The notes: generated by a model not told the origin, from the letters alone. Shown: positions 8,362-33,489, counted from the first letter of the stretch. The stretch: 64,000 nucleotides of DNA from Escherichia phage VpaE1_ev035 (LR699048), one strand, 5' to 3'. A program made the numbers and translations.

Positions 8362-8453
8362 TTGACTCTTTGAACGGGGTTATCTAGTATTTGCATCAAC
8401 GGGAGGGAATGACCTTCCTACTAAATAAAACCCTTAAACTAGGAGATTCAAAA
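8362..8453 (+). promoter_or_regulatory. type-A leader cassette: sigma70-like promoter (TTGACT-N17-TAGTAT) + 5' stem-loop + RBS
   Basis: -35 at 8362-8367, 17-nt spacer, -10 at 8385-8390; stem-loop GGGAGGGAATGACCTTCC; leader CTAAATAAAACCCTTAAACTAGGAGATTCAAAA. Confidence 0.5.
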
Positions 8454-8834
8454 ATGGCATATCGCGCACCTAAATTCATCAATAAAGACAACTTTCGCAA
8501 CGCACTGGAGAAGTCACTTGATGAAAATTTTAAAGGTAACATTATCGTTGTTCACGCATTCAATTTTAAGTATGATGTAAACGGGAATAGAATCAACCAT
8601 TACACGGCAACCATGTTAGATGGTACACTATCAAGTGAAAAAGCCGTACTGAATGCACTAGCAGGACGCGGAAAAGTATTAGTAAGATGCGATAAGCGAC
8701 GTTATCAGGGTGGCGCATATGGTTATGATGATGCTGTTTATCATCTTGAAAATATGGGCTATAAAGTAGAAAAAACTGGGGTATCGCAAATCATCGGGAG
8801 CGATGGTTATGTAACAATCTTCAAAATTAACTGA
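8454..8834 (+). CDS. hypothetical small protein (cassette array ORF 1)
   Basis: ATG preceded by conserved leader ...CTTAAACTAGGAGATTCAAAA; ORF track frame 8391..8834. Confidence 0.55.
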   Translation: MAYRAPKFINKDNFRNALEKSLDENFKGNIIVVHAFNFKYDVNGNRINHYTATMLDGTLSSEKAVLNALAGRGKVLVRCDKRRYQGGAYGYDDAVYHLENMGYKVEKTGVSQIIGSDGYVTIFKIN

Positions 8835-8924
8835 TAAAGTACTTTACAAGGGGCTTATAGTTCGATAGAGTAAGCCCCAGATAAAGAGCTTTACCACTCA
8901 ATCCTAAATTGGAGAATCTGAAAA
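8835..8924 (+). promoter_or_regulatory. type-B leader cassette: GGGGCTTA/TAAGCCCC hairpin + conserved leader with RBS
   Basis: Hairpin GGGGCTTATAGTTCGATAGAGTAAGCCCC then AGATAAAGAGCTTTACCACTCAATCCTAAATTGGAGAATCTGAAAA. Confidence 0.45.
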
Positions 8925-9218
8925 ATGGCTATTATCAAAAACGTTGTAATTACTGCAAAAACTCGTGATGACGCTCGCGTTATGGCTAAAAAGTTATGCG
9001 GGAAAGTTGTTGACAATGGGAAAAAATCTGCTGTAAGATGGGGCGTAAAGGTTGATAAACAGTTGAAGTTAAAAAATTCACCGATAAATCTTTTTACATG
9101 TGTAAACACTATCGGGAAGACAAATGTATACACGAAAAAGGCATACATTAGACGCGTAGCATTAACATCCCCCATTCGTACAATGAGAAGTTATGCAAAG
9201 CTGAAAATTAACAAATAA
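8925..9218 (+). CDS. hypothetical small protein (cassette array ORF 2)
   Basis: Conserved type-B leader with RBS directly upstream. Confidence 0.55.
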   Translation: MAIIKNVVITAKTRDDARVMAKKLCGKVVDNGKKSAVRWGVKVDKQLKLKNSPINLFTCVNTIGKTNVYTKKAYIRRVALTSPIRTMRSYAKLKINK

Positions 9219-9303
9219 AGTACTTTACAGGGGGCTTAAAAGTTGATATCTTAAGCCCCAGATAAAGAGCTTTACCACTCAATCCTAAACTGGAGATTCT
9301 AAA
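9219..9303 (+). promoter_or_regulatory. type-B leader cassette
   Basis: Same stem (GGGGCTTAA/TTAAGCCCC) with a different loop, same downstream leader. Confidence 0.45.
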
Positions 9304-9816
9304 ATGAAAACTGTAGACGCTACCTTTGAAGTTGTAAAAGAAAAATTTTCCATCATCTACGAAGCGGTAAATTGCTACGAAGCAAGCCATAATCTTGATA
9401 ATTGGGAATTTACAGATGACCATCAAGGCGGTGTGACGATTAAAAATCCTAGCTGTCAGCGTAATGAATTTAAATATGCAATCCCTTTACATTACAGCCT
9501 TAAACAGCTTTCAAGTGACTATGCAAAACAAGGCCGGGAAAACCCATCAAAAGAGGCTTACATCAGCTTACAGAAAGAACTAGAAAGAGATTTAGAGGCT
9601 TCAGAGTACAACCTTGCCGCGAAAGTTGTGGATGCAAACGGTAACACGGTTTTAGAAAGTTTTTATCTTGGTTATGCTTTCGATTGGTGCTATCGTGACG
9701 GCGATGATTTAGAGGATAGACTAAAAGAAGAGGTGAACAATTCAGACGCAGAAACTGAAGTATTAGAACGTTTGGAATCATTGAAAGATTCAGTGATGAA
9801 TATCTTTAAGAACTAA
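9304..9816 (+). CDS. hypothetical protein (cassette array ORF 3)
   Basis: Conserved type-B leader with RBS directly upstream. Confidence 0.55.
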   Translation: MKTVDATFEVVKEKFSIIYEAVNCYEASHNLDNWEFTDDHQGGVTIKNPSCQRNEFKYAIPLHYSLKQLSSDYAKQGRENPSKEAYISLQKELERDLEASEYNLAAKVVDANGNTVLESFYLGYAFDWCYRDGDDLEDRLKEEVNNSDAETEVLERLESLKDSVMNIFKN

Positions 9817-9908
9817 ATAGATTTCTTTACACGGGGTTATCAAGCTGGTAGGATAGCCCCAGATAGAGAGATTTATCAAATAAAGCCCTTAAACTAGGAG
9901 ATTCTAAA
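9817..9908 (+). promoter_or_regulatory. type-B leader cassette (variant)
   Basis: Hairpin GGGGTTATC...GATAGCCCC (compensatory changes) followed by leader ending CTTAAACTAGGAGATTCTAAA. Confidence 0.4.
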
Positions 9909-10205
9909 ATGAAATTATCAAATCAAGTGCGTGAAAATCTGAGCAAATTACTCAACAAAATTGATTTCATTGAAACATCAAGGAATAGCCATGATGTTAT
10001 GGAATGGTTACACGGCAAAATAAAAGGTCGTCGTGTAGTGATTTGCTTATGGAACAGTTGCAGGGAGTATAAAAAACCTGTATTACAAGTCAATATCTAT
10101 GATGATACTTTTAAAAGTCCAGTAAAGTCTAAAAGCGATTTATTAGAATCTTATGAGATATCTGTAAATGGCAAAGTATCACGTAAAGAGGTAACACCAT
10201 GTTAA
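9909..10205 (+). CDS. hypothetical small protein (cassette array ORF 4)
   Basis: Conserved leader variant upstream. Confidence 0.55.
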   Translation: MKLSNQVRENLSKLLNKIDFIETSRNSHDVMEWLHGKIKGRRVVICLWNSCREYKKPVLQVNIYDDTFKSPVKSKSDLLESYEISVNGKVSRKEVTPC

Positions 10206-10531
10206 TGACTGGTATCACTGCAATCATTGCCATTTTCGCGCTATATAAGGCGTATATAGCCTATAATCTAGCAAATAAGGCAATCACACAGCAGGTTAGA
10301 AATAACCTTGTAGAGAGCTTTCTAGGGCGTCTCAGTGATGAGCAAATAAAGCGGCTAGAGATGAGCTTCAGATACAAAGCGAAAACCTATCAGATAAGTG
10401 ACATCTTCAAAGATGATTTTCAGTTAGTCGATGATTATAATTCACTAATAAATGCTTTAAATATCAGTGACTTAAAAGACTACTACGCTGTAATTGTTCA
10501 AGAATTGAGCAAACGAAAACAAAGTGTTTGA
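10199..10531 (+). CDS. hypothetical membrane-associated small protein (cassette array ORF 5)
   Basis: ATG overlaps stop of previous ORF (ATGTTAATGA), N-terminal hydrophobic segment. Confidence 0.5.
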   Translation: MLMTGITAIIAIFALYKAYIAYNLANKAITQQVRNNLVESFLGRLSDEQIKRLEMSFRYKAKTYQISDIFKDDFQLVDDYNSLINALNISDLKDYYAVIVQELSKRKQSV

Positions 10532-10620
10532 CACTGATTTTTAGATAGGCTAAATTACACATCAACGGGGAGGGAATGACCTTCCCCACTAAATAAAGTC
10601 CTAAACTGGAGATTCTGAAA
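10528..10620 (+). promoter_or_regulatory. type-A leader cassette: promoter (TTGACA-N17-TAAATT) + stem-loop + RBS
   Basis: -35 10528-10533, -10 10551-10556; stem-loop GGGGAGGGAATGACCTTCCCC; conserved leader. Confidence 0.5.
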
Positions 10621-10779
10621 ATGTTTTGTGCAGGTGATAAAGTTGTCTGGAATGATATAGATGACGGTTTATGTACGAAAGTTGTTGTTATCCTAGAAAT
10701 TGATTATATCACTGGTGTTGCAACTGTAGCAGATAATGATATAATCTTTGATGTCTTAATTAGTGAACTGTCAAAATAA
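10621..10779 (+). CDS. hypothetical 52-aa protein (cassette array ORF 6, below ORF-track cutoff)
   Basis: Manual translation MFCAGDKVVWNDIDDG...SELSK; preceded by full type-A cassette (promoter, stem-loop, RBS). Confidence 0.45.
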   Translation: MFCAGDKVVWNDIDDGLCTKVVVILEIDYITGVATVADNDIIFDVLISELSK

Positions 10780-10804
10780 AACCCTTAAACTAGGAGCTTT
10801 TAAA

Positions 10805-11077
10805 ATGTACACTACTAACAACGGTCGCACCTTAAACGTAACCCTACGCCACTATGTGAACGGTGTAATGCACTTCGAGGATTTACAAGCTGAACAGCAC
10901 ATTTTGGATTGGCAAGTTGCAGGACTCCAAAAAACTGCTACAGGATACGGGAAAAAGATTCCAACCAGTTGGAAAGTATACTACGAAGGACGTTTGCGCA
11001 GAATTTATCAAGATGTGCAAAGCAATAGCGCATCGAGTTACATTATAGTAAAAGGCAAAAAACTGCATTTAATGTAA
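10805..11077 (+). CDS. hypothetical small protein (cassette array ORF 7)
   Basis: ATG after conserved CTTAAACTAGGAGCTTTTAAA leader; ORF track frame 10763..11077. Confidence 0.5.
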   Translation: MYTTNNGRTLNVTLRHYVNGVMHFEDLQAEQHILDWQVAGLQKTATGYGKKIPTSWKVYYEGRLRRIYQDVQSNSASSYIIVKGKKLHLM

Positions 11078-11163
11078 AGTACTTTACAAGGGGCTTATAG
11101 TTCGATAAAGTAAGCCCCAGATAAAGAGCTTTACTACTCAATCCTAAATTGGAGAACTTAAAA
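11078..11163 (+). promoter_or_regulatory. type-B leader cassette
   Basis: Near-identical to 8835-8924. Confidence 0.45.
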
Positions 11164-11568
11164 ATGGCTATTAATAACCGTGAATTATCAATTTTAAAAG
11201 CACGTTTGACCGTCAACAGGATTAATGTTCTGACATCATCAGCGCCTGATGAAACATTGCACAACATTATCGGGAAGATTCAAAGTGTTATCTTAGACGT
11301 TGAAAATGTAAAAAGTTCATTGGCTGACGTTGCATCAGGTATCACGCTAGACGGCGCGCAATATGAAATGTCAGACATGTTAGGCAAATCTAAGGTAATG
11401 AATAAAGAGTTAGATTTGAAAATGTTCCGATTTGCTGTTAAAGTGTGGTTATCTGTCGAGTATGATGCTAACTTTGCAATCGCTGACTTTTTCGCCACTT
11501 GGTTGCAGCGTAATTTGTCAAATCACGATTTTCGTAATATCTGCGATGCAATTTATGCAGAACTCTAA
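11164..11568 (+). CDS. hypothetical protein (cassette array ORF 8)
   Basis: ATG after type-B leader; ORF track frame 11149..11568. Confidence 0.55.
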   Translation: MAINNRELSILKARLTVNRINVLTSSAPDETLHNIIGKIQSVILDVENVKSSLADVASGITLDGAQYEMSDMLGKSKVMNKELDLKMFRFAVKVWLSVEYDANFAIADFFATWLQRNLSNHDFRNICDAIYAEL

Positions 11569-11587
11569 AAAAATTGTTGACACTTAT

Positions 11588-11669
11588 TTTTAGATAGATT
11601 AAATTACACATCAACGGGGAGGGATTAACCTTCCCCACTAAATAAAGTCCTTAAACTAGGAGATTCAAA
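11588..11669 (+). promoter_or_regulatory. type-A leader cassette: promoter (TTGACA-N17-TAAATT) + stem-loop + RBS
   Basis: -35 11588-11593, -10 11611-11616; stem-loop GGGGAGGGATTAACCTTCCCC. Confidence 0.5.
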
Positions 11670-11918
11670 ATGATGAATTTTTTAAATATCCCTGATACTT
11701 GCCGACTGTTGACGCAACCAGAAAATTTAGGCAAACCTTTCCTGTACCATATGCCAGACAATACACCAAAAACATATAGCTACACAGTTAACCGCTTTAC
11801 GGGTTACGCTGCAAAAAACGGTTACAAGGTTACTACTCAAAAAGTAACACTATTTACAAATATCGAAGAGCTTCCAACAATCGCTGTAAAACTAATATTT
11901 ACGAAGAAGACGCAATAA
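11670..11918 (+). CDS. hypothetical small protein (cassette array ORF 9)
   Basis: Full type-A cassette upstream. Confidence 0.5.
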   Translation: MMNFLNIPDTCRLLTQPENLGKPFLYHMPDNTPKTYSYTVNRFTGYAAKNGYKVTTQKVTLFTNIEELPTIAVKLIFTKKTQ

Positions 11919-12003
11919 AGTACTTTACAAGGGGCTTAAAAGTTGATATCTTAAGCCCCAGATAAAGAACTTTACCACTAAATCCTAAACTGGAGATTCT
12001 AAA
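11919..12003 (+). promoter_or_regulatory. type-B leader cassette
   Basis: Near-identical to 9219-9303. Confidence 0.45.
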
Positions 12004-12546
12004 ATGAAATGTTTTCACGGTACTACTCAAGAAAATTTCCTCAACCTGATTAATAACGGTGATAAACCATCAGGCGCATGGAATTGTTCGGATATGGACG
12101 GCAATTTTTACGTGTATCCAGAAAATAAAATCTATGGCGACGATGAGGAAGAAATAGCATCAGAGGGCATTCAGCAAGCTCTAGGTAATGCCACTATCAC
12201 CGCAGCTTTTCAGATGAAGACTCAAAATATTGTTATCTTAGAACTCGATATTCCAGAGGATGAGCTAAACGATGATTATTCTTGTGATAATATGTCGAGT
12301 GTAGCAAGTTTTACAGAGTACTTTGATGTAAATTGGATTAAAAAGGTCTATACAACAGAGTTTAACGCTATGTATTCACCTTTTTGTCTTCCTTCATTGG
12401 ATAACCCAAATTTAAACTATCTTGATGAGTCTCTGGAGCTTCTTGCTAAAAGTGTTCAACAGTCGGACAGTATTCAGGTTTTTTGTGACATCATGGATAC
12501 ACTGACAGGAAACATTGCAGAAGAGGATTTAAAGAGCTTTTTCTAA
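12004..12546 (+). CDS. hypothetical acidic protein (cassette array ORF 10)
   Basis: Type-B leader upstream. Confidence 0.55.
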   Translation: MKCFHGTTQENFLNLINNGDKPSGAWNCSDMDGNFYVYPENKIYGDDEEEIASEGIQQALGNATITAAFQMKTQNIVILELDIPEDELNDDYSCDNMSSVASFTEYFDVNWIKKVYTTEFNAMYSPFCLPSLDNPNLNYLDESLELLAKSVQQSDSIQVFCDIMDTLTGNIAEEDLKSFF

Positions 12547-12577
12547 AAACCTATACAATCACCTTATAAACACTAAT

Positions 12578-12600
12578 CAGCCCCTTGTAGGGGCTTTTAG
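12578..12600 (+). terminator. hairpin/weak terminator
   Basis: CAGCCCCT-TGT-AGGGGCT followed by TTTAG. Confidence 0.35.
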
Positions 12601-12612
12601 GGGGCTTAAATC

Positions 12613-12846
12613 ATGCTTACAACCGTTTACCTTATCCTTTCTATTTGTAATGGCCATTCATGTGATTTTAAAGGGCTTGAGGAGTTCACAGGAAGTAAAG
12701 AAAATGCTATTCAAGTTTGCCAGATAGCAAGGCAAGACTATCCCGCAAGTGATGATATTCAGTGTTACTTTAAGACAGAAGATGACGACGGAATCTATTT
12801 CGATAGTGTTGATGGTCAGTATGAGATTATCATTGAAAAAGACTAG
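12613..12846 (+). CDS. hypothetical small protein (cassette array ORF 11)
   Basis: ORF track; preceded by hairpin 12578-12596. Confidence 0.45.
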   Translation: MLTTVYLILSICNGHSCDFKGLEEFTGSKENAIQVCQIARQDYPASDDIQCYFKTEDDDGIYFDSVDGQYEIIIEKD

Positions 12847-12937
12847 ACAAGCCTGATAAAAGTCTGTAAATTGTCAATCAACGGGGAGGAAATGACCTCC
12901 CCCACTAAATAAAGTCCTTAAACTAGGAGATTCAAAA
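12847..12937 (+). promoter_or_regulatory. type-A leader cassette (no clear -35)
   Basis: TAAATTGTCAATCAACGGGGAGGAAATGACCTCCCCC + conserved leader. Confidence 0.4.
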
Positions 12938-13279
12938 ATGGCTTATGTAACCGTAATTACCGATAAAGCTGGCGCATCTTGGTCAACTCAAGTAAGTGAT
13001 AAGATGTCACCTATGCAGTGCCTAAAATACTTTGAACAGTGGAACAAAGGCGAGGACACAAGCCCCTTTCAAGTGATGCAGATTATCCATGTAGATAACG
13101 AAGGGAATAAAACGGTTTTAAATAGTGAGTACTACGCAAGCCGTTTTGAAACGAGAAGTAAAACAATGAAGCTTTTACGTGAATCCGGTTATGCCCATAT
13201 CGCCGCGTTAATCTGGGATGACCTGCTAAAAAACCAACGTATCAGCTATGTAAAACCTGAAAAAATATTCATCAGTTAA
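12938..13279 (+). CDS. hypothetical protein (cassette array ORF 12)
   Basis: Type-A stem-loop and leader upstream. Confidence 0.55.
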   Translation: MAYVTVITDKAGASWSTQVSDKMSPMQCLKYFEQWNKGEDTSPFQVMQIIHVDNEGNKTVLNSEYYASRFETRSKTMKLLRESGYAHIAALIWDDLLKNQRISYVKPEKIFIS

Positions 13280-13429
13280 TCAATAACTTACAAAAAACTT
13301 TTAAAAAAGTGTTGACAATACCCCTTGACATTGGTAACTTTGTTCGAGGGGGTTTATCTAAAAGGGATTCACTTAAAAGATTCTTTATAGATAAACTTAA
13401 AAAATTGCTTGCAATCAGCTATCAAAACA

Positions 13430-13499
13430 AGTAAATTACTAATTAACGGAAGGGATGACCTCCCCACTAAACAAAGTCCTTAAACTAGGAGATTCTAAA
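13430..13499 (+). promoter_or_regulatory. type-A leader cassette
   Basis: TAAATTACTAATTAACGGAAGGGATGACCTCCCC + conserved leader; TTGACA boxes further upstream at ~13311 and ~13325. Confidence 0.4.
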
Positions 13500-14030
13500 A
13501 TGAACAAGTTTAAAGCTATCAACTATATTCGTTCAAATAGCGTAATGTCTAAGCCTGTTAAAGATACCTATGAATTTAGTTGTAATGGGGTACACTTTGC
13601 AACCATTACCAAATCAGAAAACGGGGCTTATTACATTCATCGCCGTAATGTTTCTACTGTTGTAGTCTCTCACTTTATGCAAGCTGTAGCGGAATTATTA
13701 CCGTTATTCTTAGAGATTTACTTAGATGAGTGTAAAAACGTTCACAACCACGTTAAAAACCTTTTAAATGGTTATAAAATGACTTATGAACGTTCTATTC
13801 ATAATTTGAACAAGTTCTATAAAGCCCCTGAAAATACTGTGTCAATAGCTTATGATGTAAGCGGTGAAATGGTCAACCTCTCCAATGTAGAACAAATTAA
13901 CCTTTATAATTTACGTCCTAGTGGTTACTCTAAGACTCTTGGTGAAGGTTTAACGTTCAATATCAAGAACTTAGAAAAAACTTTAAAAGATATTGAAAAA
14001 GATATTGACGAGACACTTAAAAGTCTGTAA
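13500..14030 (+). CDS. hypothetical protein (cassette array ORF 13)
   Basis: ATG after conserved leader; ORF track frame 13455..14030. Confidence 0.55.
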   Translation: MNKFKAINYIRSNSVMSKPVKDTYEFSCNGVHFATITKSENGAYYIHRRNVSTVVVSHFMQAVAELLPLFLEIYLDECKNVHNHVKNLLNGYKMTYERSIHNLNKFYKAPENTVSIAYDVSGEMVNLSNVEQINLYNLRPSGYSKTLGEGLTFNIKNLEKTLKDIEKDIDETLKSL

Positions 14031-14096
14031 ATTGTCAATCAACGGGGAGGGAATGACCTTCCCCACTAAATAAAGTCCTAAACTGGAGTTATCAAG
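14031..14096 (+). promoter_or_regulatory. type-A leader cassette
   Basis: TAAATTGTCAATCAACGGGGAGGGAATGACCTTCCCC + leader. Confidence 0.4.
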
Positions 14097-14360
14097 ATGG
14101 AAAACGTAGAATTAACCACACTTTTACAAATTGCAACTGACAAAGAAGATGTAGCATTATTTCACCGTATCGAAAGCGATTTGTTCAATGATGAAATCAT
14201 CAAAGAATCTTATGAAGTTGTCGGATTCAAAGATGGTAAAGCGTTTGGATTCTTTGACCTCGACAAAGGCAACGCTGTTACAAAGTATGATGTTTTGTCT
14301 TGTGAGATTCTTACAAAATACAACGAAAAAAGGCTTGCAACATACGCCAATATGCAGTAA
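14097..14360 (+). CDS. hypothetical small acidic protein (cassette array ORF 14)
   Basis: Type-A stem-loop and leader upstream. Confidence 0.5.
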   Translation: MENVELTTLLQIATDKEDVALFHRIESDLFNDEIIKESYEVVGFKDGKAFGFFDLDKGNAVTKYDVLSCEILTKYNEKRLATYANMQ

Positions 14361-14426
14361 ATTACTAATCAACGGGAGGCGATAACCTCCCCACTAAATA
14401 AAACCCTTAAACTAGGAGATTCAAAA
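14361..14426 (+). promoter_or_regulatory. type-A leader cassette
   Basis: TAAATTACTAATCAACGGGAGGCGATAACCTCCCC + leader (compensatory stem changes). Confidence 0.4.
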
Positions 14427-14675
14427 ATGGCAACTATCCGCGCTACTGTTAACGAGTTCGGTTTTTCCTCTCTGGATGTTAAATTTGACATTGCAGGCAC
14501 TGATAACGCCTTTGAAATGGTGAAAGGTCTTATCAGTCAGACCATCAAAGATTATAATCCTTCGGATGAGTTCTGGGAGGAAACAAAACAAGAAGTTCTC
14601 AAGGATGGTTATACTTATCACTATTGGGGAGAAAAAATCGTCTCCCTGTACTACAACAAACAAGATTATAACTAA
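14427..14675 (+). CDS. hypothetical small protein (cassette array ORF 15)
   Basis: Type-A stem-loop and leader upstream; followed by tandem hairpins/terminator. Confidence 0.5.
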   Translation: MATIRATVNEFGFSSLDVKFDIAGTDNAFEMVKGLISQTIKDYNPSDEFWEETKQEVLKDGYTYHYWGEKIVSLYYNKQDYN

Positions 14676-14683
14676 TCGACGCA

Positions 14684-14739
14684 GCGGGGCTAAATAGCCC
14701 CAGATACCTTTTACAGCCCCTCATAGGGGCTTTTTTACG
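14684..14739 (+). terminator. tandem hairpins ending in rho-independent terminator (end of + strand early block)
   Basis: GGGGCTA-AA-TAGCCCC then AGCCCCT-CAT-AGGGGCT + T6. Confidence 0.7.
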
Positions 14740-14744
14740 TCTAT

Positions 14745-16280
14745 CGAATCCTTATACAATCCCTTTCCAGAATCTTATCAGACCTTAAAAACAATAACTC
14801 TATAGTCTACTCTATAACCTTTTATCAAATCAACTTAAATAAAAGCCAATAACCCCAGAAAGGGGATGGCCCATTTAAACGCTCTATAAAGCTCTATAAC
14901 AGCCTTATCAACCTAACTTAAGGGATTGCATTAACCTATCTTAAAAAAGCTCTTTACAGGGCTTTATAGAGCCTTAAAAGAATCTTATAAGGGCGTAAGC
15001 TTTATCATCTCATTAGTATTCTTGTGAATAACTAAACAACCCCCTTGATAGTCACTAAAAAGTATGTTATAGGGGCTTTAAAGTTACTTTGAAGTAGCTT
15101 AAAAGTTACGTAAAAGAGGCTATAAAGTTACGTAAATGCTAGCCCCCTTAACATTTTCTTAACAATTTCTTAACAATCCCTACATAGTTATGCTTTTAAG
15201 GCACTTGTTAGCACCTTGTTAAATCTCTGTTAAGACCACGTAAAAGCCTTGTAAGAGTCTTTGACATAGCCTTAAAAGCTCCTGTAAAGCTCTATAAAGA
15301 GGTGTTTGTACAGTTGGGGGATAGATACTAGGAAGAGGCTTAAAAGAGCTTATAAAGAGCTATAGAGAGCTTTTAAAAGGTATGTTTAAGGAATCACTAA
15401 GAAAGGAAAGGGAACGATAAGAAAGAGATAGTGACCATGTTAATAGCTTGTTAAAAAGATTAAACACTTGTTAGAAACTTGTTAATTATCTTAACAAAAT
15501 AACTCTTAAAAATTAACTTGTTAGCTCTTGTTAGTCATCTGTTAAGCCTCTGTAAAGACTATTCAGCAACTGTTAAGAGACTGTTACAGCCTTGTTAGTT
15601 CTGTTAAGAATCTGTTAAGACCTTTGAAGAGTTGTTAAGAAGATGTGAGAACTGTTAAGAGATTGTTAAGGATATTTTAAAATTTTGCAAAGTACTTGTA
15701 AGGGAGTTGTTAAGGGCTACCAAGCAGATATACATCTTCTACAGATATTTTTCAGTTCCTTCAAAGACCCTAAAAAATGACTTGACAGTCCTATTTTATA
15801 AAAATTTTAAGATTCTGAATAATTACCTATACAGTCTTTTAAAAATACAGGTAGAAACAGGCTTATAAGATACCTTGTTAGTACCGTGTTAGACCTTGTG
15901 AGATAAGGTCTGTAAAGATATTCCTGTTAAGTTTGTTAAAACAGTCTATATAGAGGCTTAGTATTTCCTAGTGAACACCTATAGAGAGTATCATAGCTGA
16001 CATAGAGATTAAGAGGTGTATAGGAGCTTCTAAGAAGGTGTAGAGAGATGGTTAAGGTGATTGTATAGGTTGTTAAGAAGGCTTGTTAGAAGAGTGTTTA
16101 GATGGCTATTTAGAAGGGCTATACAGAGGGCTATTAAGACCACTAGATAGTTACTAAGATACTATATAGTACTATATAACTATATATAGAGAGTAAGATT
16201 AAGAAGGTTGTTAAGAAGGATAGATATTTTATTCACATATGATGGTGACCCAGAGGTTGGGACAACCGATAAAATTTTAT
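14745..16280. other. 1.5-kb gene-free convergent intergenic region, AT-rich, dense in short repeats
   Basis: No ORF of 60 aa or more in any frame; bounded by terminators of the converging + and - strand blocks; clusters of CT(N)TA(A/T)AAG and TGTTA(A/G) motifs. Confidence 0.7.
15438..15672 (+). repeat. phased iteron-like array: ~16 copies of (C)TGTTA(A/G)(G/A)
   Basis: TGTTA starts at 15438, 15449, 15469, 15480, 15519, 15529, 15540, 15571, 15582, 15593, 15602, 15613, 15633, 15653, 15664; spacings are multiples of ~10-11 bp. Confidence 0.7.
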
Positions 16281-16282
16281 AA

Positions 16283-16314
16283 AAATTAAAAAGCCCCCGA
16301 TTAAGGAGGCTCTT
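16283..16314 (-). terminator. rho-independent terminator for minus-strand block
   Basis: On minus strand GAGCCUCC-UUAAUC-GGGGGCUU followed by U-rich run; sits just past stop of 16323 gene. Confidence 0.5.
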
Positions 16315-31665: not shown

Positions 31666-31866
31666 ATGAGCGAGAACGTTTATAAAGAACTTTATGAAGC
31701 TAACAAGAAGTTAGAGTTTATGCAGAATACTATCATGGCAATTGCAGATAGATTATCTGTAGCAACAGGTATTGATATTCAAGAAGCGTCTATGGATGCA
31801 CTTCTTGATGCTGTTGATGCAAAGTTCGAAGTTAAGAAAGAAGAGACTGCTACAGACTCTGAATAA
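31666..31866 (+). CDS. hypothetical small acidic protein upstream of terminase
   Basis: ORF track, 66 aa. Confidence 0.4.
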   Translation: MSENVYKELYEANKKLEFMQNTIMAIADRLSVATGIDIQEASMDALLDAVDAKFEVKKEETATDSE

Positions 31867-31887
31867 TTCTATTTGCGGAGGTGCTTA

Positions 31888-33489
31888 ATGGACTTAAATG
31901 CTGTTAAGCAGAAGCGAGTGGAAGATGTTAGGAAAGTCCTAGCTGGAGAGTTGGGGCTTTCTGATGAAGTAAAAGAAATTATCAAATCATTCGGTAAAGA
32001 CCCCTCTAAATTCCTTCCAACTCAAATTCTGACTTTATTAAGATACACACCAGACCAAGTTAGACTTATCTTCAAATTGATGACTGATAAGAACTATGTA
32101 GCCCCTCAGCCGGGTTCTCAAGAGGTCTTTTTAAATACTAATGCTGACTTGGTTCTCTATGGTGGTGCTGCTGGTGCTGGTAAGACTGCCGCATTGTTAA
32201 TGGACTCTTTAAGATTTATTGAAGACCCTAACTATAATGCTGTATATTTCCGTCGAAATACAACACAGTTACAAGGTGGTTTATGGCCTGCTGCAAAGAA
32301 ACTATTTGGTAAGTTTGGTGGGATTCCTCACGAGCAGAAAATGACTATCACATTCCCTTCTGGGGCAACTATCAAGTTTACCTACCTAGAACTTGAAAAG
32401 CACGCTGAAGGTCATCAGGGTATTGAATACTCAGCTATTTACTTTGACGAAGGTACGCACTTCTCTGCTTCACAGATTTCATACCTACAAACCCGTCTAC
32501 GTTCTGGTGCTGAAGGTGATTCATACATGAAGATTTCCATGAACCCAGACAGAGACCATTTTATTTATGATTGGGTAGAACCATTCTTAGATGAAGAAGG
32601 TTATCCAGACCCTGAAAAGTGTGGTCGTATTCGTTGGTATGTAATGAACGATGGTGTGATGGTTTCTGATTGGGAGAGAGACAAGATTCTTGAAATGTTC
32701 CCTCTTGAGATTCCTCAAACATACACCTTCATCTCTGGTACGATTGATGATAACCCAATTCTTGACTTCTTAGAACCAAAGTATCGCGGTAAGCTTGAAA
32801 ACAACACTCCTGTAAACGTTGCAAGACTTCGTTTCGGTAACTGGAAGGCTCGTGCAGAAGGTTCAAACTATTGGCAAAGACAATGGTGTGAAATTGTTGA
32901 TTCACTCCCAGAAGATGTATTTGATGTTAGAGCATGGGACTTAGCAGCAACTTTACCATCTGAGATTAACCCTAATCCAGACTGGACAGCAGGTGTTAAG
33001 ATGGGTAAATCTAAAAAAGACGGTTGCTATTATATCATTGATGTAGTAAGATTTAGAGATAGACCCTCTGGAGTCGAAACACAAATTAATTTGACTGCTG
33101 AAAGTGACGGTAAGCGAACTGGTATTTTTATCCCTCAAGACCCAGGCGCTGCTGGTAAATCCTACGCAACATCCCTCATCAGGAAACTTGCCGAGAAAGG
33201 CTATCGTGCAAGAGCTAAACCAACAAATAAAGATAAAGTTACCCGCTTTGCGGGATTTTCTGCTGCTTCTGAAGCTGGACTTGTAAAAGTCTTGAGAGGT
33301 AGTTGGAATGAAGCTTACTTTCAAGAGCTTGAAGGTTTTTGTGGTGATGGTAAAACTAAAGATGACCAAGTGGATGCTACCAGTGATGCTTTCAACAGTC
33401 TTAACGAAGTTAAATTATTCAAGCCACCATCAATGGGTGCTCACACAGATTTAGTGAGAGGAAACCCATATGAGGGGCTTAGACGTTGA
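31888..33489 (+). CDS. terminase large subunit
   Basis: Walker A LYGGAAGAGKT, Walker B-like IYFDEG, C-terminal nuclease-like region; ATG 31888 with GGAGG RBS (ORF track frame begins at TTG 31873). Confidence 0.9.
   Translation: MDLNAVKQKRVEDVRKVLAGELGLSDEVKEIIKSFGKDPSKFLPTQILTLLRYTPDQVRLIFKLMTDKNYVAPQPGSQEVFLNTNADLVLYGGAAGAGKTAALLMDSLRFIEDPNYNAVYFRRNTTQLQGGLWPAAKKLFGKFGGIPHEQKMTITFPSGATIKFTYLELEKHAEGHQGIEYSAIYFDEGTHFSASQISYLQTRLRSGAEGDSYMKISMNPDRDHFIYDWVEPFLDEEGYPDPEKCGRIRWYVMNDGVMVSDWERDKILEMFPLEIPQTYTFISGTIDDNPILDFLEPKYRGKLENNTPVNVARLRFGNWKARAEGSNYWQRQWCEIVDSLPEDVFDVRAWDLAATLPSEINPNPDWTAGVKMGKSKKDGCYYIIDVVRFRDRPSGVETQINLTAESDGKRTGIFIPQDPGAAGKSYATSLIRKLAEKGYRARAKPTNKDKVTRFAGFSAASEAGLVKVLRGSWNEAYFQELEGFCGDGKTKDDQVDATSDAFNSLNEVKLFKPPSMGAHTDLVRGNPYEGLRR

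What the first reader, a model, noticed from the sequence alone, without database searches (positions are those of the whole stretch)
14745..16280. 1.5-kb gene-free convergent region with a helically phased iteron-like array
No ORF of 60 codons or more in any frame. The region sits between the terminators of the converging + and - strand blocks. About 16 copies of TGTTA(A/G) between 15438 and 15672 start at spacings that are multiples of ~10-11 bp, which puts them on one face of the helix. A second family of CT(N)TA(A/T)AAG 8-mers clusters at 14760-15400. This looks like a protein-binding array such as a replication origin, partition site or packaging site.
Basis: seen in the sequence. Interest (0 to 1): 0.7.

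Follow-up and report, generated by a model that had tools for sequence, protein, structure and literature searches.

The report
Phage genome-end (terminal repeat) region
The gene-free 1.5 kb is where the linear genome of this Felix O1-like phage begins and ends: it holds the ~580-bp direct terminal repeat, which is built from helically phased TGTTAAG units, so it is an end-formation and packaging region of a known kind, not a replication origin or partition site.

Summary
The region has no ORF of 60 codons or more. It lies between two convergent terminators. TGTTA(A/G) occurs 25 times against about 2 expected, with spacings locked to a ~10.25-bp period. The second motif family exists only after correcting the pattern to the palindromic CTNTANAG.

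The window is a Felixounavirus genome opened at rIIA. In relatives the virion ends have been mapped. The annotated 581-bp direct terminal repeat (DTR) of phage Pr103Blw aligns end to end with window 15142-15721. Three other independent records begin or end at the same two bases. A 608-bp DTR was shown experimentally for UAB_Phi87.

- Motif bases are 98.5% conserved against 90% for the bases between them.
- The longest invariant stretch of the spacer straddles the right DTR boundary.
- The same layout (reverse TTAACA x3 at the left edge, a forward array running to the right edge) recurs in Suspvirus, Mooglevirus and Erwinia Kolesnikvirus.
- DTR length varies in roughly 11-bp steps.

Best reading: these are cis-acting sites for terminase-linked end cutting and DTR duplication, as in T7. 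The binding protein is unidentified. The kind is known and the interest modest.

The parts
14715..14740 (+). Rho-independent terminator that closes the + strand early-gene block
   Evidence: A stem of 7 pairs followed by a T run. The homologous site is annotated as a terminator in ASO1A.
14745..15141 (.). Left flank of the concatemer junction. This is unique DNA that precedes the right-end DTR copy in the virion. It consists of ~11-bp units of the CTNTANAG / YTNTAAAG type, including a 22-bp tandem repeat at 15074-15136.
   Evidence: CTNTANAG sites at 14798, 14884, 14952, 14962, 15076 and 15120. TRF reports period 22 x 2.9 copies. Relatives differ here by indels of 11, 88, 99 and 120 bp. Conservation is 85%.
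15124..15158 (+). Left DTR boundary element AAGTTACGTAAATGCTA|GCCCCCTTAACA. The inferred end lies between 15141 and 15142.
   Evidence: The records of Pr103Blw, SeKF_63 and NBSal004 all start at GCCCCCTTAACATTTTC. The element is nearly invariant in 24 Felixounavirus sequences, is conserved in SUSP2 and Moogle, and is recognisable in Erwinia phage M7. It is unique in the window.
15142..15721 (+). Homologue of the direct terminal repeat (580 bp). It is present once in this collapsed assembly and is expected at both ends of the virion DNA.
   Evidence: The annotated 581-bp DTR of Pr103Blw aligns 1-581 to 15142-15721 at 92% identity. SeKF_63 has an exact 613-bp DTR and NBSal004 an exact 694-bp DTR with the same boundaries. 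PhageTerm reports 581 bp (PMC8303462) and 613 bp (PMC6454146). Bal31 digestion plus run-off sequencing gives 608 bp in UAB_Phi87 (PMC4837284), where the boundary-to-boundary distance is 614 bp.
15148..15176 (-). Three TGTTAAG units in reverse orientation (CTTAACA) at 11-bp spacing, starting 6 nt inside the left DTR boundary
   Evidence: Positions 15148, 15159 and 15170. TRF reports period 11 at 95% match. The same triplet is present in SUSP2 and Moogle, and M7 has reverse-orientation copies near its left edge.
15206..15233 (+). Three forward TGTTAR units at 11-bp spacing. Relatives have 3 to 5.
15438..15714 (+). Main forward array of yTGTTA(A/G)ga units, 15 exact copies, helically phased. It ends 7 nt before the right DTR boundary.
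   Evidence: Positions and consensus. Periodicity test. Motif bases are 98.5% conserved against 90% for the other DTR bases. The spacing pattern ...9, 11, 20, 20, 11, 44 is conserved across genera.
15708..15734 (+). Right DTR boundary element TGTTAAGGGCTACC|AAGCAGATATACA. The inferred end lies between 15721 and 15722.
   Evidence: This is the longest invariant run (27 nt) of the whole spacer in 24 sequences. The DTRs of Pr103Blw, SeKF_63 and NBSal004 end at ...GGGCTACC, and the pEP20 record is opened exactly there. The only stretch of the spacer that still aligns with Erwinia phages (window ~15608-15734) includes this element. It is unique in the window.
15722..16270 (.). Right flank of the junction. 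This is unique DNA that follows the left-end DTR copy. It is strongly conserved non-coding DNA with more TGTTAR pairs and CTNTANAG units.
   Evidence: It is 95.2% conserved, as high as codon positions 1-2 of the flanking genes. TGTTAR sites at 15876, 15887, 15925, 15934, 16071, 16084 and 16209. No codon-phase signal and no Rfam match.
16289..16314 (-). Rho-independent terminator that closes the - strand block
   Evidence: A stem of 10 pairs followed by a T run. Annotated as a terminator in ASO1A.

Best explanation
The spacer is the concatemer-junction (genome-end) region of a Felixounavirus. Window 15142-15721 is the single assembled copy of a ~580-bp exact direct terminal repeat (DTR). Its outer bases are the physical left and right ends of the packaged chromosome.

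Proposed mechanism. Replication yields head-to-tail concatemers with one DTR per junction. A phage protein or proteins occupy one face of the DNA along the 10-11-bp-phased TGTTAAG units. The likely candidate is the terminase, whose recognition subunit is not yet identified. These units are arranged as inward-pointing arrays at both edges of the DTR. Reading inward from either physical end, the sequence is a 6-8-nt G/C-rich stretch followed by phased TTAACA units. The nuclease then cuts at the two invariant boundary elements, GCTA|GCCCCC and GGGCTACC|AAGC, on opposite strands about 580 bp apart. Strand-displacement synthesis duplicates the DTR, so each packaged genome carries it at both ends, as in the T7 scheme. 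The convergent terminators keep transcription out of the junction.

Shown: the region, its arrays and their phasing; the homology to mapped DTRs; and the conservation of motifs, boundaries and layout across four genera.

Inferred: that the arrays bind protein, that this protein is the terminase, and the staggered-nick duplication step.

My probabilities: about 0.9 that the termini and DTR lie here, and about 0.5 that the arrays serve end cutting or packaging specifically.
For: - The window is a Felixounavirus. 255 phage records match the region, and 185 of them cover at least 80% of it.
- The annotated DTR of Pr103Blw aligns end to end with 15142-15721.
- SeKF_63 (613-bp exact DTR), NBSal004 (694 bp) and pEP20 were sequenced independently and have ends at the same homologous bases. 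Several further records start at query position ~443-463, which is window ~15142-15162.
- Published end mapping: Bal31 plus run-off sequencing gives 608 bp in UAB_Phi87 (PMC4837284). PhageTerm gives 581 bp (PMC8303462) and 613 bp (PMC6454146). The UAB_Phi87 boundary-to-boundary distance is 614 bp.
- Erwinia phage M7 has an exact 444-bp DTR with the same layout.
- Motif bases are more conserved than the bases between them (98.5% against 90%, Mann-Whitney p about 1e-9). Third codon positions of the flanking genes are 77-90% conserved.
- The longest invariant run spans the right boundary, and both boundaries are conserved across genera.
- Phasing is significant in the window and in every relative tested.
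- DTR length changes in ~11-bp steps.
- T7 likewise has short one-directional repeats inside and immediately beside its 160-bp DTR.
Against: - The termini of this particular phage were not measured. The window holds one DTR copy and no reads.
- No protein is known to bind TGTTAAG. No small terminase is recognisable. The 66-aa ORF upstream of TerL is only a helical hairpin of unknown function. The flanking genes have no assignable function either.
- Multiples of 11 bp among indels are what slippage of tandem units would give without any selection.
- The sequences compared are closely related, so the conservation statistics overstate independence.
- The boundary calls for M7 differ by 2-3 nt from those in Felixounavirus, so the exact cut positions are uncertain.
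- The cut positions are not symmetric about the inverted TAGCCC..TTAACA element. They are offset by about 4 nt.
Confidence: 0.75

Rival explanations
1. The arrays are a replication origin. Iteron-like repeats bind a phage initiator, and the adjacent AT-rich DNA is melted. This function could exist in addition to the DTR role.
For: Phased direct repeats next to the most AT-rich kilobase of the window, with GC 0.325 for 15001-16000 and 100-bp bins as low as 0.28-0.29. The origin of Felix O1-like phages is unmapped in every paper I read.
Against: The units have 7-bp cores on an 11-bp period, unlike 17-22-bp iterons. No initiator or helicase-loader gene is recognisable beside the region. DnaA boxes and IHF sites are at background level. 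The turning point in GC skew at 16-17 kb coincides with the switch in gene orientation and so carries no independent information. The best-conserved parts are the two end-cutting boundaries, not an unwinding element.
Confidence: 0.1
2. The arrays act after injection rather than in packaging. Because they lie in the DTR, they sit at both ends of the incoming DNA. There they could bind a phage or virion protein that shields the ends from RecBCD, or that pairs the two DTRs for recombination into circles or concatemers.
For: Both physical ends read the same way inward: a 6-8-nt G/C-rich stretch, then phased TTAACA units. The related phage Bas63 is reported to lack a RecBCD inhibitor (bioRxiv 10.1101/2024.10.10.617714). 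The layout is conserved across genera.
Against: No candidate protein exists and there are no data. TGTTAR pairs also occur in the unique right flank outside the DTR. The conservation peak lies at the cut site itself.
Confidence: 0.1
3. The repeats have no sequence-specific function. They are slippage-generated tandem filler in a spacer whose only functional parts are the two cut sites.
For: Copy number varies freely. DTR-homologue length is 569-658 bp across the 24 Felixounavirus loci and 694 bp in NBSal004. Indels are unit multiples, as slippage predicts.
Against: Motif bases are 98.5% conserved against 90% for spacer bases. The motif, its orientation pattern and its spacing persist in Erwinia phages, where the rest of the spacer no longer aligns.
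Confidence: 0.05

Closest known systems
Phage T7 terminal repeat with its flanking short-repeat arrays (SRL/SRR), processed at the concatemer junction by terminase gp18/gp19
   Same: Both have a short exact DTR with fixed ends and a non-coding junction. Both carry one-directional short repeats inside and directly beside the DTR. In T7 I verified a 160-bp DTR with 3 ACCTAAAG copies inside it and 12 NTAAAG copies just to the right of the left copy. The TAAAG-type cores resemble the CTNTAAAG units found here. Published terminase phylogeny places the Felix O1 group among DTR packagers (PMC4837284).
   Different: The DTR here is 3.6 times longer. The T7 units are mostly 13 bp apart, not 10-11 bp. 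Here there are two motif families, and inverted arrays mark the two DTR edges. No T7-like RNA polymerase promoters or pause site are present. No homologue of gp18 is recognisable. The function of the T7 arrays is itself unclear (my own knowledge).
pac sites with phased short repeats bound by the small terminase (P1 pac hexamers, SPP1 pacL/pacR boxes)
   Same: Several copies of a 6-7-bp motif flank the cut site, spaced so that they face one side of the helix. This supports the idea of a wrapped recognition complex (my own knowledge, not tested here).
   Different: Those phages package by the headful and have permuted ends. Relatives of this phage have exact, non-permuted DTRs.
Iteron-type replication origins (plasmids, lambda ori)
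   Same: Direct repeats in phase with the helix, next to AT-rich DNA.
   Different: The unit size differs, no adjacent initiator gene is present, DnaA and IHF sites are not enriched, and the repeats coincide with mapped genome ends.

Membership tests
Short exact direct terminal repeat (T7-type DTR) genome ends | The same sequence is present at both ends of the virion DNA | not testable with these tools
   The window has one collapsed copy and no reads. The feature is met in relatives: Pr103Blw 581 bp, SeKF_63 613 bp, NBSal004 694 bp and M7 444 bp each have an exact prefix that equals the suffix.
Short exact direct terminal repeat (T7-type DTR) genome ends | The ends are fixed and sequence-specific (not permuted), and are the same in independent isolates | tested here: met
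   Four independently deposited records share both boundary sequences. Those sequences are present, unique and conserved in the window at 15142 and 15721. Bal31 and run-off evidence for UAB_Phi87 is in PMC4837284.
Short exact direct terminal repeat (T7-type DTR) genome ends | The large terminase clusters with DTR-type terminases | not tested
   Reported for the Felix O1 group in PMC4837284. TerL lies at window 31873-33489, but I built no tree.
T7-like arrays of short repeats associated with the DTR | One-directional short repeats inside and immediately flanking the DTR | tested here: met
   Window map. T7 checked directly.
Iteron replication origin | Iterons of about 17-22 bp, with a cognate initiator gene adjacent or overlapping | tested here: not met
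   7-bp cores on an 11-bp period. The flanking proteins fall in PHROG families of unknown function and have no Pfam domain.
Iteron replication origin | Host-factor sites (DnaA boxes, IHF) and an unwinding element | tested here: inconclusive
   Two one-mismatch DnaA boxes and no IHF site, which is background level. AT-rich stretches exist but are not specific to origins.
Partition site (parS or centromere repeats) | Adjacent parA/parB-type genes and a plasmid or prophage lifestyle | tested here: not met
   No such domains in the neighbouring genes. The genus is virulent with linear DTR genomes.
Headful pac site | Circularly permuted, terminally redundant ends produced from one initiating cut | tested here: not met
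   Relatives have exact, non-permuted DTRs (PMC4837284).

The most novel reading that the evidence does not exclude
The phased TGTTAAG arrays are the recognition scaffold of a terminase that has no conventional small subunit. A still unknown protein, or TerL itself, polymerises along one face of the DNA from inverted arrays at the two DTR edges. This sets both cut sites, so DTR length can drift in 11-bp quanta while the boundaries stay fixed. That would be a distinct, array-measured way of defining short terminal repeats, shared by the whole Ounavirinae subfamily.
Probability: 0.2. Interest if true: 0.5.

Novelty: new member of a known kind. Interest (0 to 1): 0.3.

Why it matters
It replaces a speculative 'iteron origin' with a concrete identity: the genome ends and terminal repeat of a Felix O1-like phage.

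This has practical uses. It shows where such assemblies should be opened. It explains why many GenBank records break inside this spacer. It also shows which DNA must be kept intact when engineering these therapeutic and diagnostic phages.

The conserved phased TGTTAAG arrays and the two invariant boundary elements give a defined substrate for finding the unknown DNA-recognition component of the Felix O1 terminase. How short DTRs are cut and duplicated outside the T7 group is poorly understood.

Tried and rejected
- Rfam at permissive E-value found nothing relevant. The only match was a sub-threshold Phe_leader hit on the terminator.
- The sigma-70 promoter scan found 9 sites against 7.9 expected, so there is no enrichment.
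- The small ORFs (53, 37 and 35 aa) show no codon-phase substitution bias, so I rejected them as genes.
- DnaA and IHF motifs are at background level.
- GC skew follows gene orientation and says nothing about an origin.
- PHROGs and Pfam on five flanking proteins and on the 66-aa ORF upstream of TerL gave only families of unknown function. A PDB sequence search for that ORF was empty. Its AlphaFold model is a plain helical hairpin, so I ran no fold search on it.
- The Felix O1 genome paper, the Danish coliphage paper and the Bas63 PhageMaP essentiality study do not address this spacer. PhageMaP targeted genes only in Bas63.
- My first Python attempts at dinucleotide shuffling and fuzzy matching timed out. 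I replaced them with Markov-1 simulations and the repeat finder.

Full report
**What is in the sequence.** Window 14745-16280 has no ORF of 60 codons or more. The longest are 53, 37, 35 and 31 aa, and none shows a codon-phase substitution pattern in relatives. The region lies between a + strand terminator (14715-14731 plus a T run) and a - strand terminator (16314-16289).

TGTTA(A/G) occurs 25 times on the + strand in the region, against 1.9 +/- 1.5 expected from Markov-1 simulations. That is 16.3 per kb against 0.99 per kb in the rest of the window. The extended form YTGTTAR clusters nowhere else in the 64 kb.

Between 15438 and 15672 there are 14 exact copies. Their spacings are 11, 20, 11, 39, 10, 11, 31, 22, 9, 11, 20, 20 and 11. 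The phase concentration is R = 0.91 at 10.25 bp, and none of 5000 random placements reached it. The four 500-bp bins with the strongest 10-11.5-bp periodicity in the window all lie in this region.

The unit consensus is (c)(t/c)TGTTA(A/G)(g)(a) on an 11-bp repeat. The real family is the palindromic CTNTANAG, with 16 copies against 1.3 expected, spread over 14798-16162.

**What the window is.** The region matches 255 phage records, 185 of them over at least 80% of its length, at 80-95% identity. All of the listed matches belong to Felixounavirus; Felix O1 itself matches at 12330-13925. In most of the listed records the region is unannotated or carries only terminator or repeat_region features or short hypothetical CDSs. 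The window is such a genome opened at rIIA.

**The decisive lead.** In the sensitive search, many records start or end inside the spacer. Six of them (ECOH1, ECP2307, GE_vB_7A, SeKF_63, REP10, NBSal004) break at query position 443-463, which is window 15142-15162. One record, pEP20, starts at query position 1022, which is window 15721.

Phage Pr103Blw was reported to have 581-bp direct terminal repeats by PhageTerm (PMC8303462). Its record annotates them at 1-581 and 87841-88421, beside the homologues of the two genes that flank our spacer. That DTR aligns from its first to its last base with window 15142-15721 at 92% identity.

SeKF_63 carries an exact 613-bp DTR and NBSal004 an exact 694-bp DTR, with the same first bases (GCCCCCTTAACATTTTC) and the same last bases (GTTAAGGGCTACC). 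The pEP20 record is opened exactly at the right boundary.

The published evidence agrees:
- Bal31 digestion plus run-off sequencing showed a 608-bp DTR in the Felixounavirus UAB_Phi87 (PMC4837284). The two boundary sequences lie 614 bp apart in that genome (locus L024).
- PhageTerm gave 613 bp for Ro111lw (PMC6454146).

So the termini of this phage group map inside the finding.

**Anatomy.** Five parts can be distinguished.
1. A left flank, 14745-15141, is built of ~11-bp CTNTANAG / YTNTAAAG units. It includes a 22-bp tandem repeat next to the boundary. Relatives differ there by 11, 88, 99 or 120 bp.
2. The left boundary is ...AAGTTACGTAAATGCTA|GCCCCC. Six nucleotides further in, three units in reverse orientation (CTTAACA) follow at 11-bp spacing (15148-15176). 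Three forward units lie at 15206-15233.
3. A middle stretch carries CTNTANAG units.
4. The main forward array runs from 15438 to 15714 and ends 7 nt before the right boundary, ...TGTTAAGGGCTACC|AAGCAGATATACA.
5. A right flank, 15722-16270, has further TGTTAR pairs.

Reading inward from either physical end gives the same picture: a 6-8-nt G/C-rich stretch, then phased TTAACA units. The two DTR edges therefore form an imperfect inverted repeat (I1). Both boundary sequences are unique in the window.

**Evidence of constraint.** I compared 24 distinct Felixounavirus sequences.
- TGTTAR bases inside the DTR are 98.5% conserved, against 90.0% for the other DTR bases (Mann-Whitney p about 1e-9).
- Third codon positions of the two flanking genes are 77-90% conserved.
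- The right flank is 95.2% conserved, as high as first and second codon positions.
- The longest invariant run of the whole spacer, 15708-15734, straddles the right boundary. The left boundary is nearly invariant too.
- The only stretch of the spacer that still aligns with Erwinia (Kolesnikvirus) phages (window ~15608-15734) includes the right boundary.

Erwinia phage M7 has an exact 444-bp DTR with the same layout: reverse TTAACA units at the left, a forward TGTTAAG array running to the right edge, and recognisable boundary homologues. SUSP2 (Suspvirus) and Moogle (Mooglevirus) have the same layout as well.

The spacing pattern of the units is significantly locked to multiples of ~10.5 bp in every one of seven DTRs tested. 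It is almost identical from genus to genus.

The boundary-to-boundary length takes the values 569, 580, 591, 601-603, 613-614, 623, 633-638 and 658 bp in the aligned loci, and 694 bp in NBSal004. These are steps of about 11 bp. Indels inside the DTR are 10, 11, 22 or 33 bp, with few exceptions. These comparisons involve related genomes, so the statistics overstate independence. Unit-sized indels are also what slippage alone would produce.

**Mechanism.** What follows from established knowledge of short-DTR phages such as T7 is this. Replication gives concatemers with one DTR per junction, and terminase cuts at fixed sites. The repeat is duplicated in conjunction with packaging (PMC6454146, citing Casjens and Gilcrease 2009). 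The scheme of staggered nicks at the two DTR edges followed by strand-displacement synthesis is my recollection of the T7 literature.

I propose the same for this region. The invariant boundary elements would be the cut sites. The phased, inward-pointing TGTTAAG arrays would be the binding platform that positions the nuclease at both edges.

That step is inferred. No binding protein is known. Only a large terminase has been recognised in this group (PMC4837284). The 66-aa ORF just upstream of TerL belongs to a PHROG family of unknown function and has no Pfam domain, no PDB relative and a plain helical-hairpin model. The genes flanking the spacer are equally uninformative.

**Rivals.**
- A replication origin cannot be excluded, but nothing specific supports it. 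The unit size is wrong for iterons, there is no adjacent initiator, DnaA and IHF sites are at background, and GC skew merely follows gene orientation.
- A post-injection role is conceivable because the arrays sit at both virion ends. They could serve end protection or pairing of the two DTRs. There are no data for this.
- Pure slippage filler is contradicted by the motif-specific conservation and by its persistence in Erwinia phages.
- Promoter and RNA readings are not supported.

**Comparison with known systems.** The closest known case is T7. I checked its record directly. It has a 160-bp DTR with three ACCTAAAG copies inside, and twelve NTAAAG copies, mostly 13 bp apart, immediately to the right of the left DTR copy. 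A few more copies lie to the left of the right DTR copy.

The present region shares the short exact DTR, the non-coding junction and the one-directional short repeats with TAAAG-like cores. It differs in several ways:
- The DTR is longer.
- The period is helical (10-11 bp).
- There are two motif families.
- Inverted arrays mark the two DTR edges.
- T7-type promoters are absent.

It fails the defining tests for an iteron origin, a partition site and a headful pac site.

**Novelty and verdict.** The existence, size and position of the DTR in Felixounavirus are already on record, in GenBank annotation and in three papers. None of the papers I could read describes the phased TGTTAAG architecture, the inverted arrangement at the two edges, the invariant boundary elements or the 11-bp quantisation. 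Even so, these describe a new member of a known kind (short-DTR junctions with repeat arrays), not a new kind of element. Interest is modest. The main value lies in correcting the interpretation and in defining a substrate for finding the missing DNA-recognition partner of this terminase.

Noticed in passing
window 1-64000; also loci L004 (45 kb of ASO1A), L001, L002, L028-L031: The tetranucleotide GATC is completely absent from the 64-kb window: 0 sites against 183 +/- 12 expected from shuffles. It is also absent from every relative fragment checked, including Suspvirus, Mooglevirus and Erwinia phage M7. CCGG (0.38 of expected) and GGCC (0.53) are depleted too, but far less. This looks like total avoidance of the Dam / MboI / DpnII / MutH site.
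   Followed up: partly
window 8395-14432 (copies at 8395, 9850, 10562, 11612, 12879, 13441, 14039, 14368): The early + strand block carries at least 8 copies of a 65-90-nt intergenic cassette. It consists of TTGACA...TAAATT (promoter-like), a GGGGAGGG...CCTTCCCC hairpin, the conserved leader ACTAAATAAAGTCCTTAAACTAGGAGATTC, and ATG. This resembles the promoter-stem-loop modules that separate early genes in T4-like phages. The Felix O1 paper lists parts of these only as 39-bp and 57-bp direct repeats.
   Followed up: partly
window 15722-16270: The unique DNA to the right of the DTR is 95% conserved across Felixounavirus, higher than the non-motif DTR bases and equal to codon positions 1-2 of neighbouring genes. 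It shows no coding signal, no Rfam match and no convincing promoter. Invariant runs lie at 15791-15810, 15856-15880 and 16161-16180. Its function is unexplained; it may be part of the packaging signal.
   Followed up: partly
GenBank records ekra MN850644, BPS17W1 MG646669, BPS17L1 NC_042096; IMG/VR contig behind L013: Several deposited genomes and one metagenomic contig break inside the spacer at positions other than the two DTR boundaries (window ~16116, ~16047, ~15361, ~15157). These are probably assembly breaks caused by the collapsed DTR and its internal repeats. Such records are likely opened at artefactual positions.
   Followed up: no
window 31666-31866 (+): A 66-aa ORF lies directly upstream of the large terminase gene. 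It belongs to PHROG 4397 (unknown function) and is predicted to be a two-helix hairpin (pLDDT 83). By position and size it is a candidate for the unrecognised small terminase or DNA-recognition subunit of Felix O1-like phages.
   Followed up: partly
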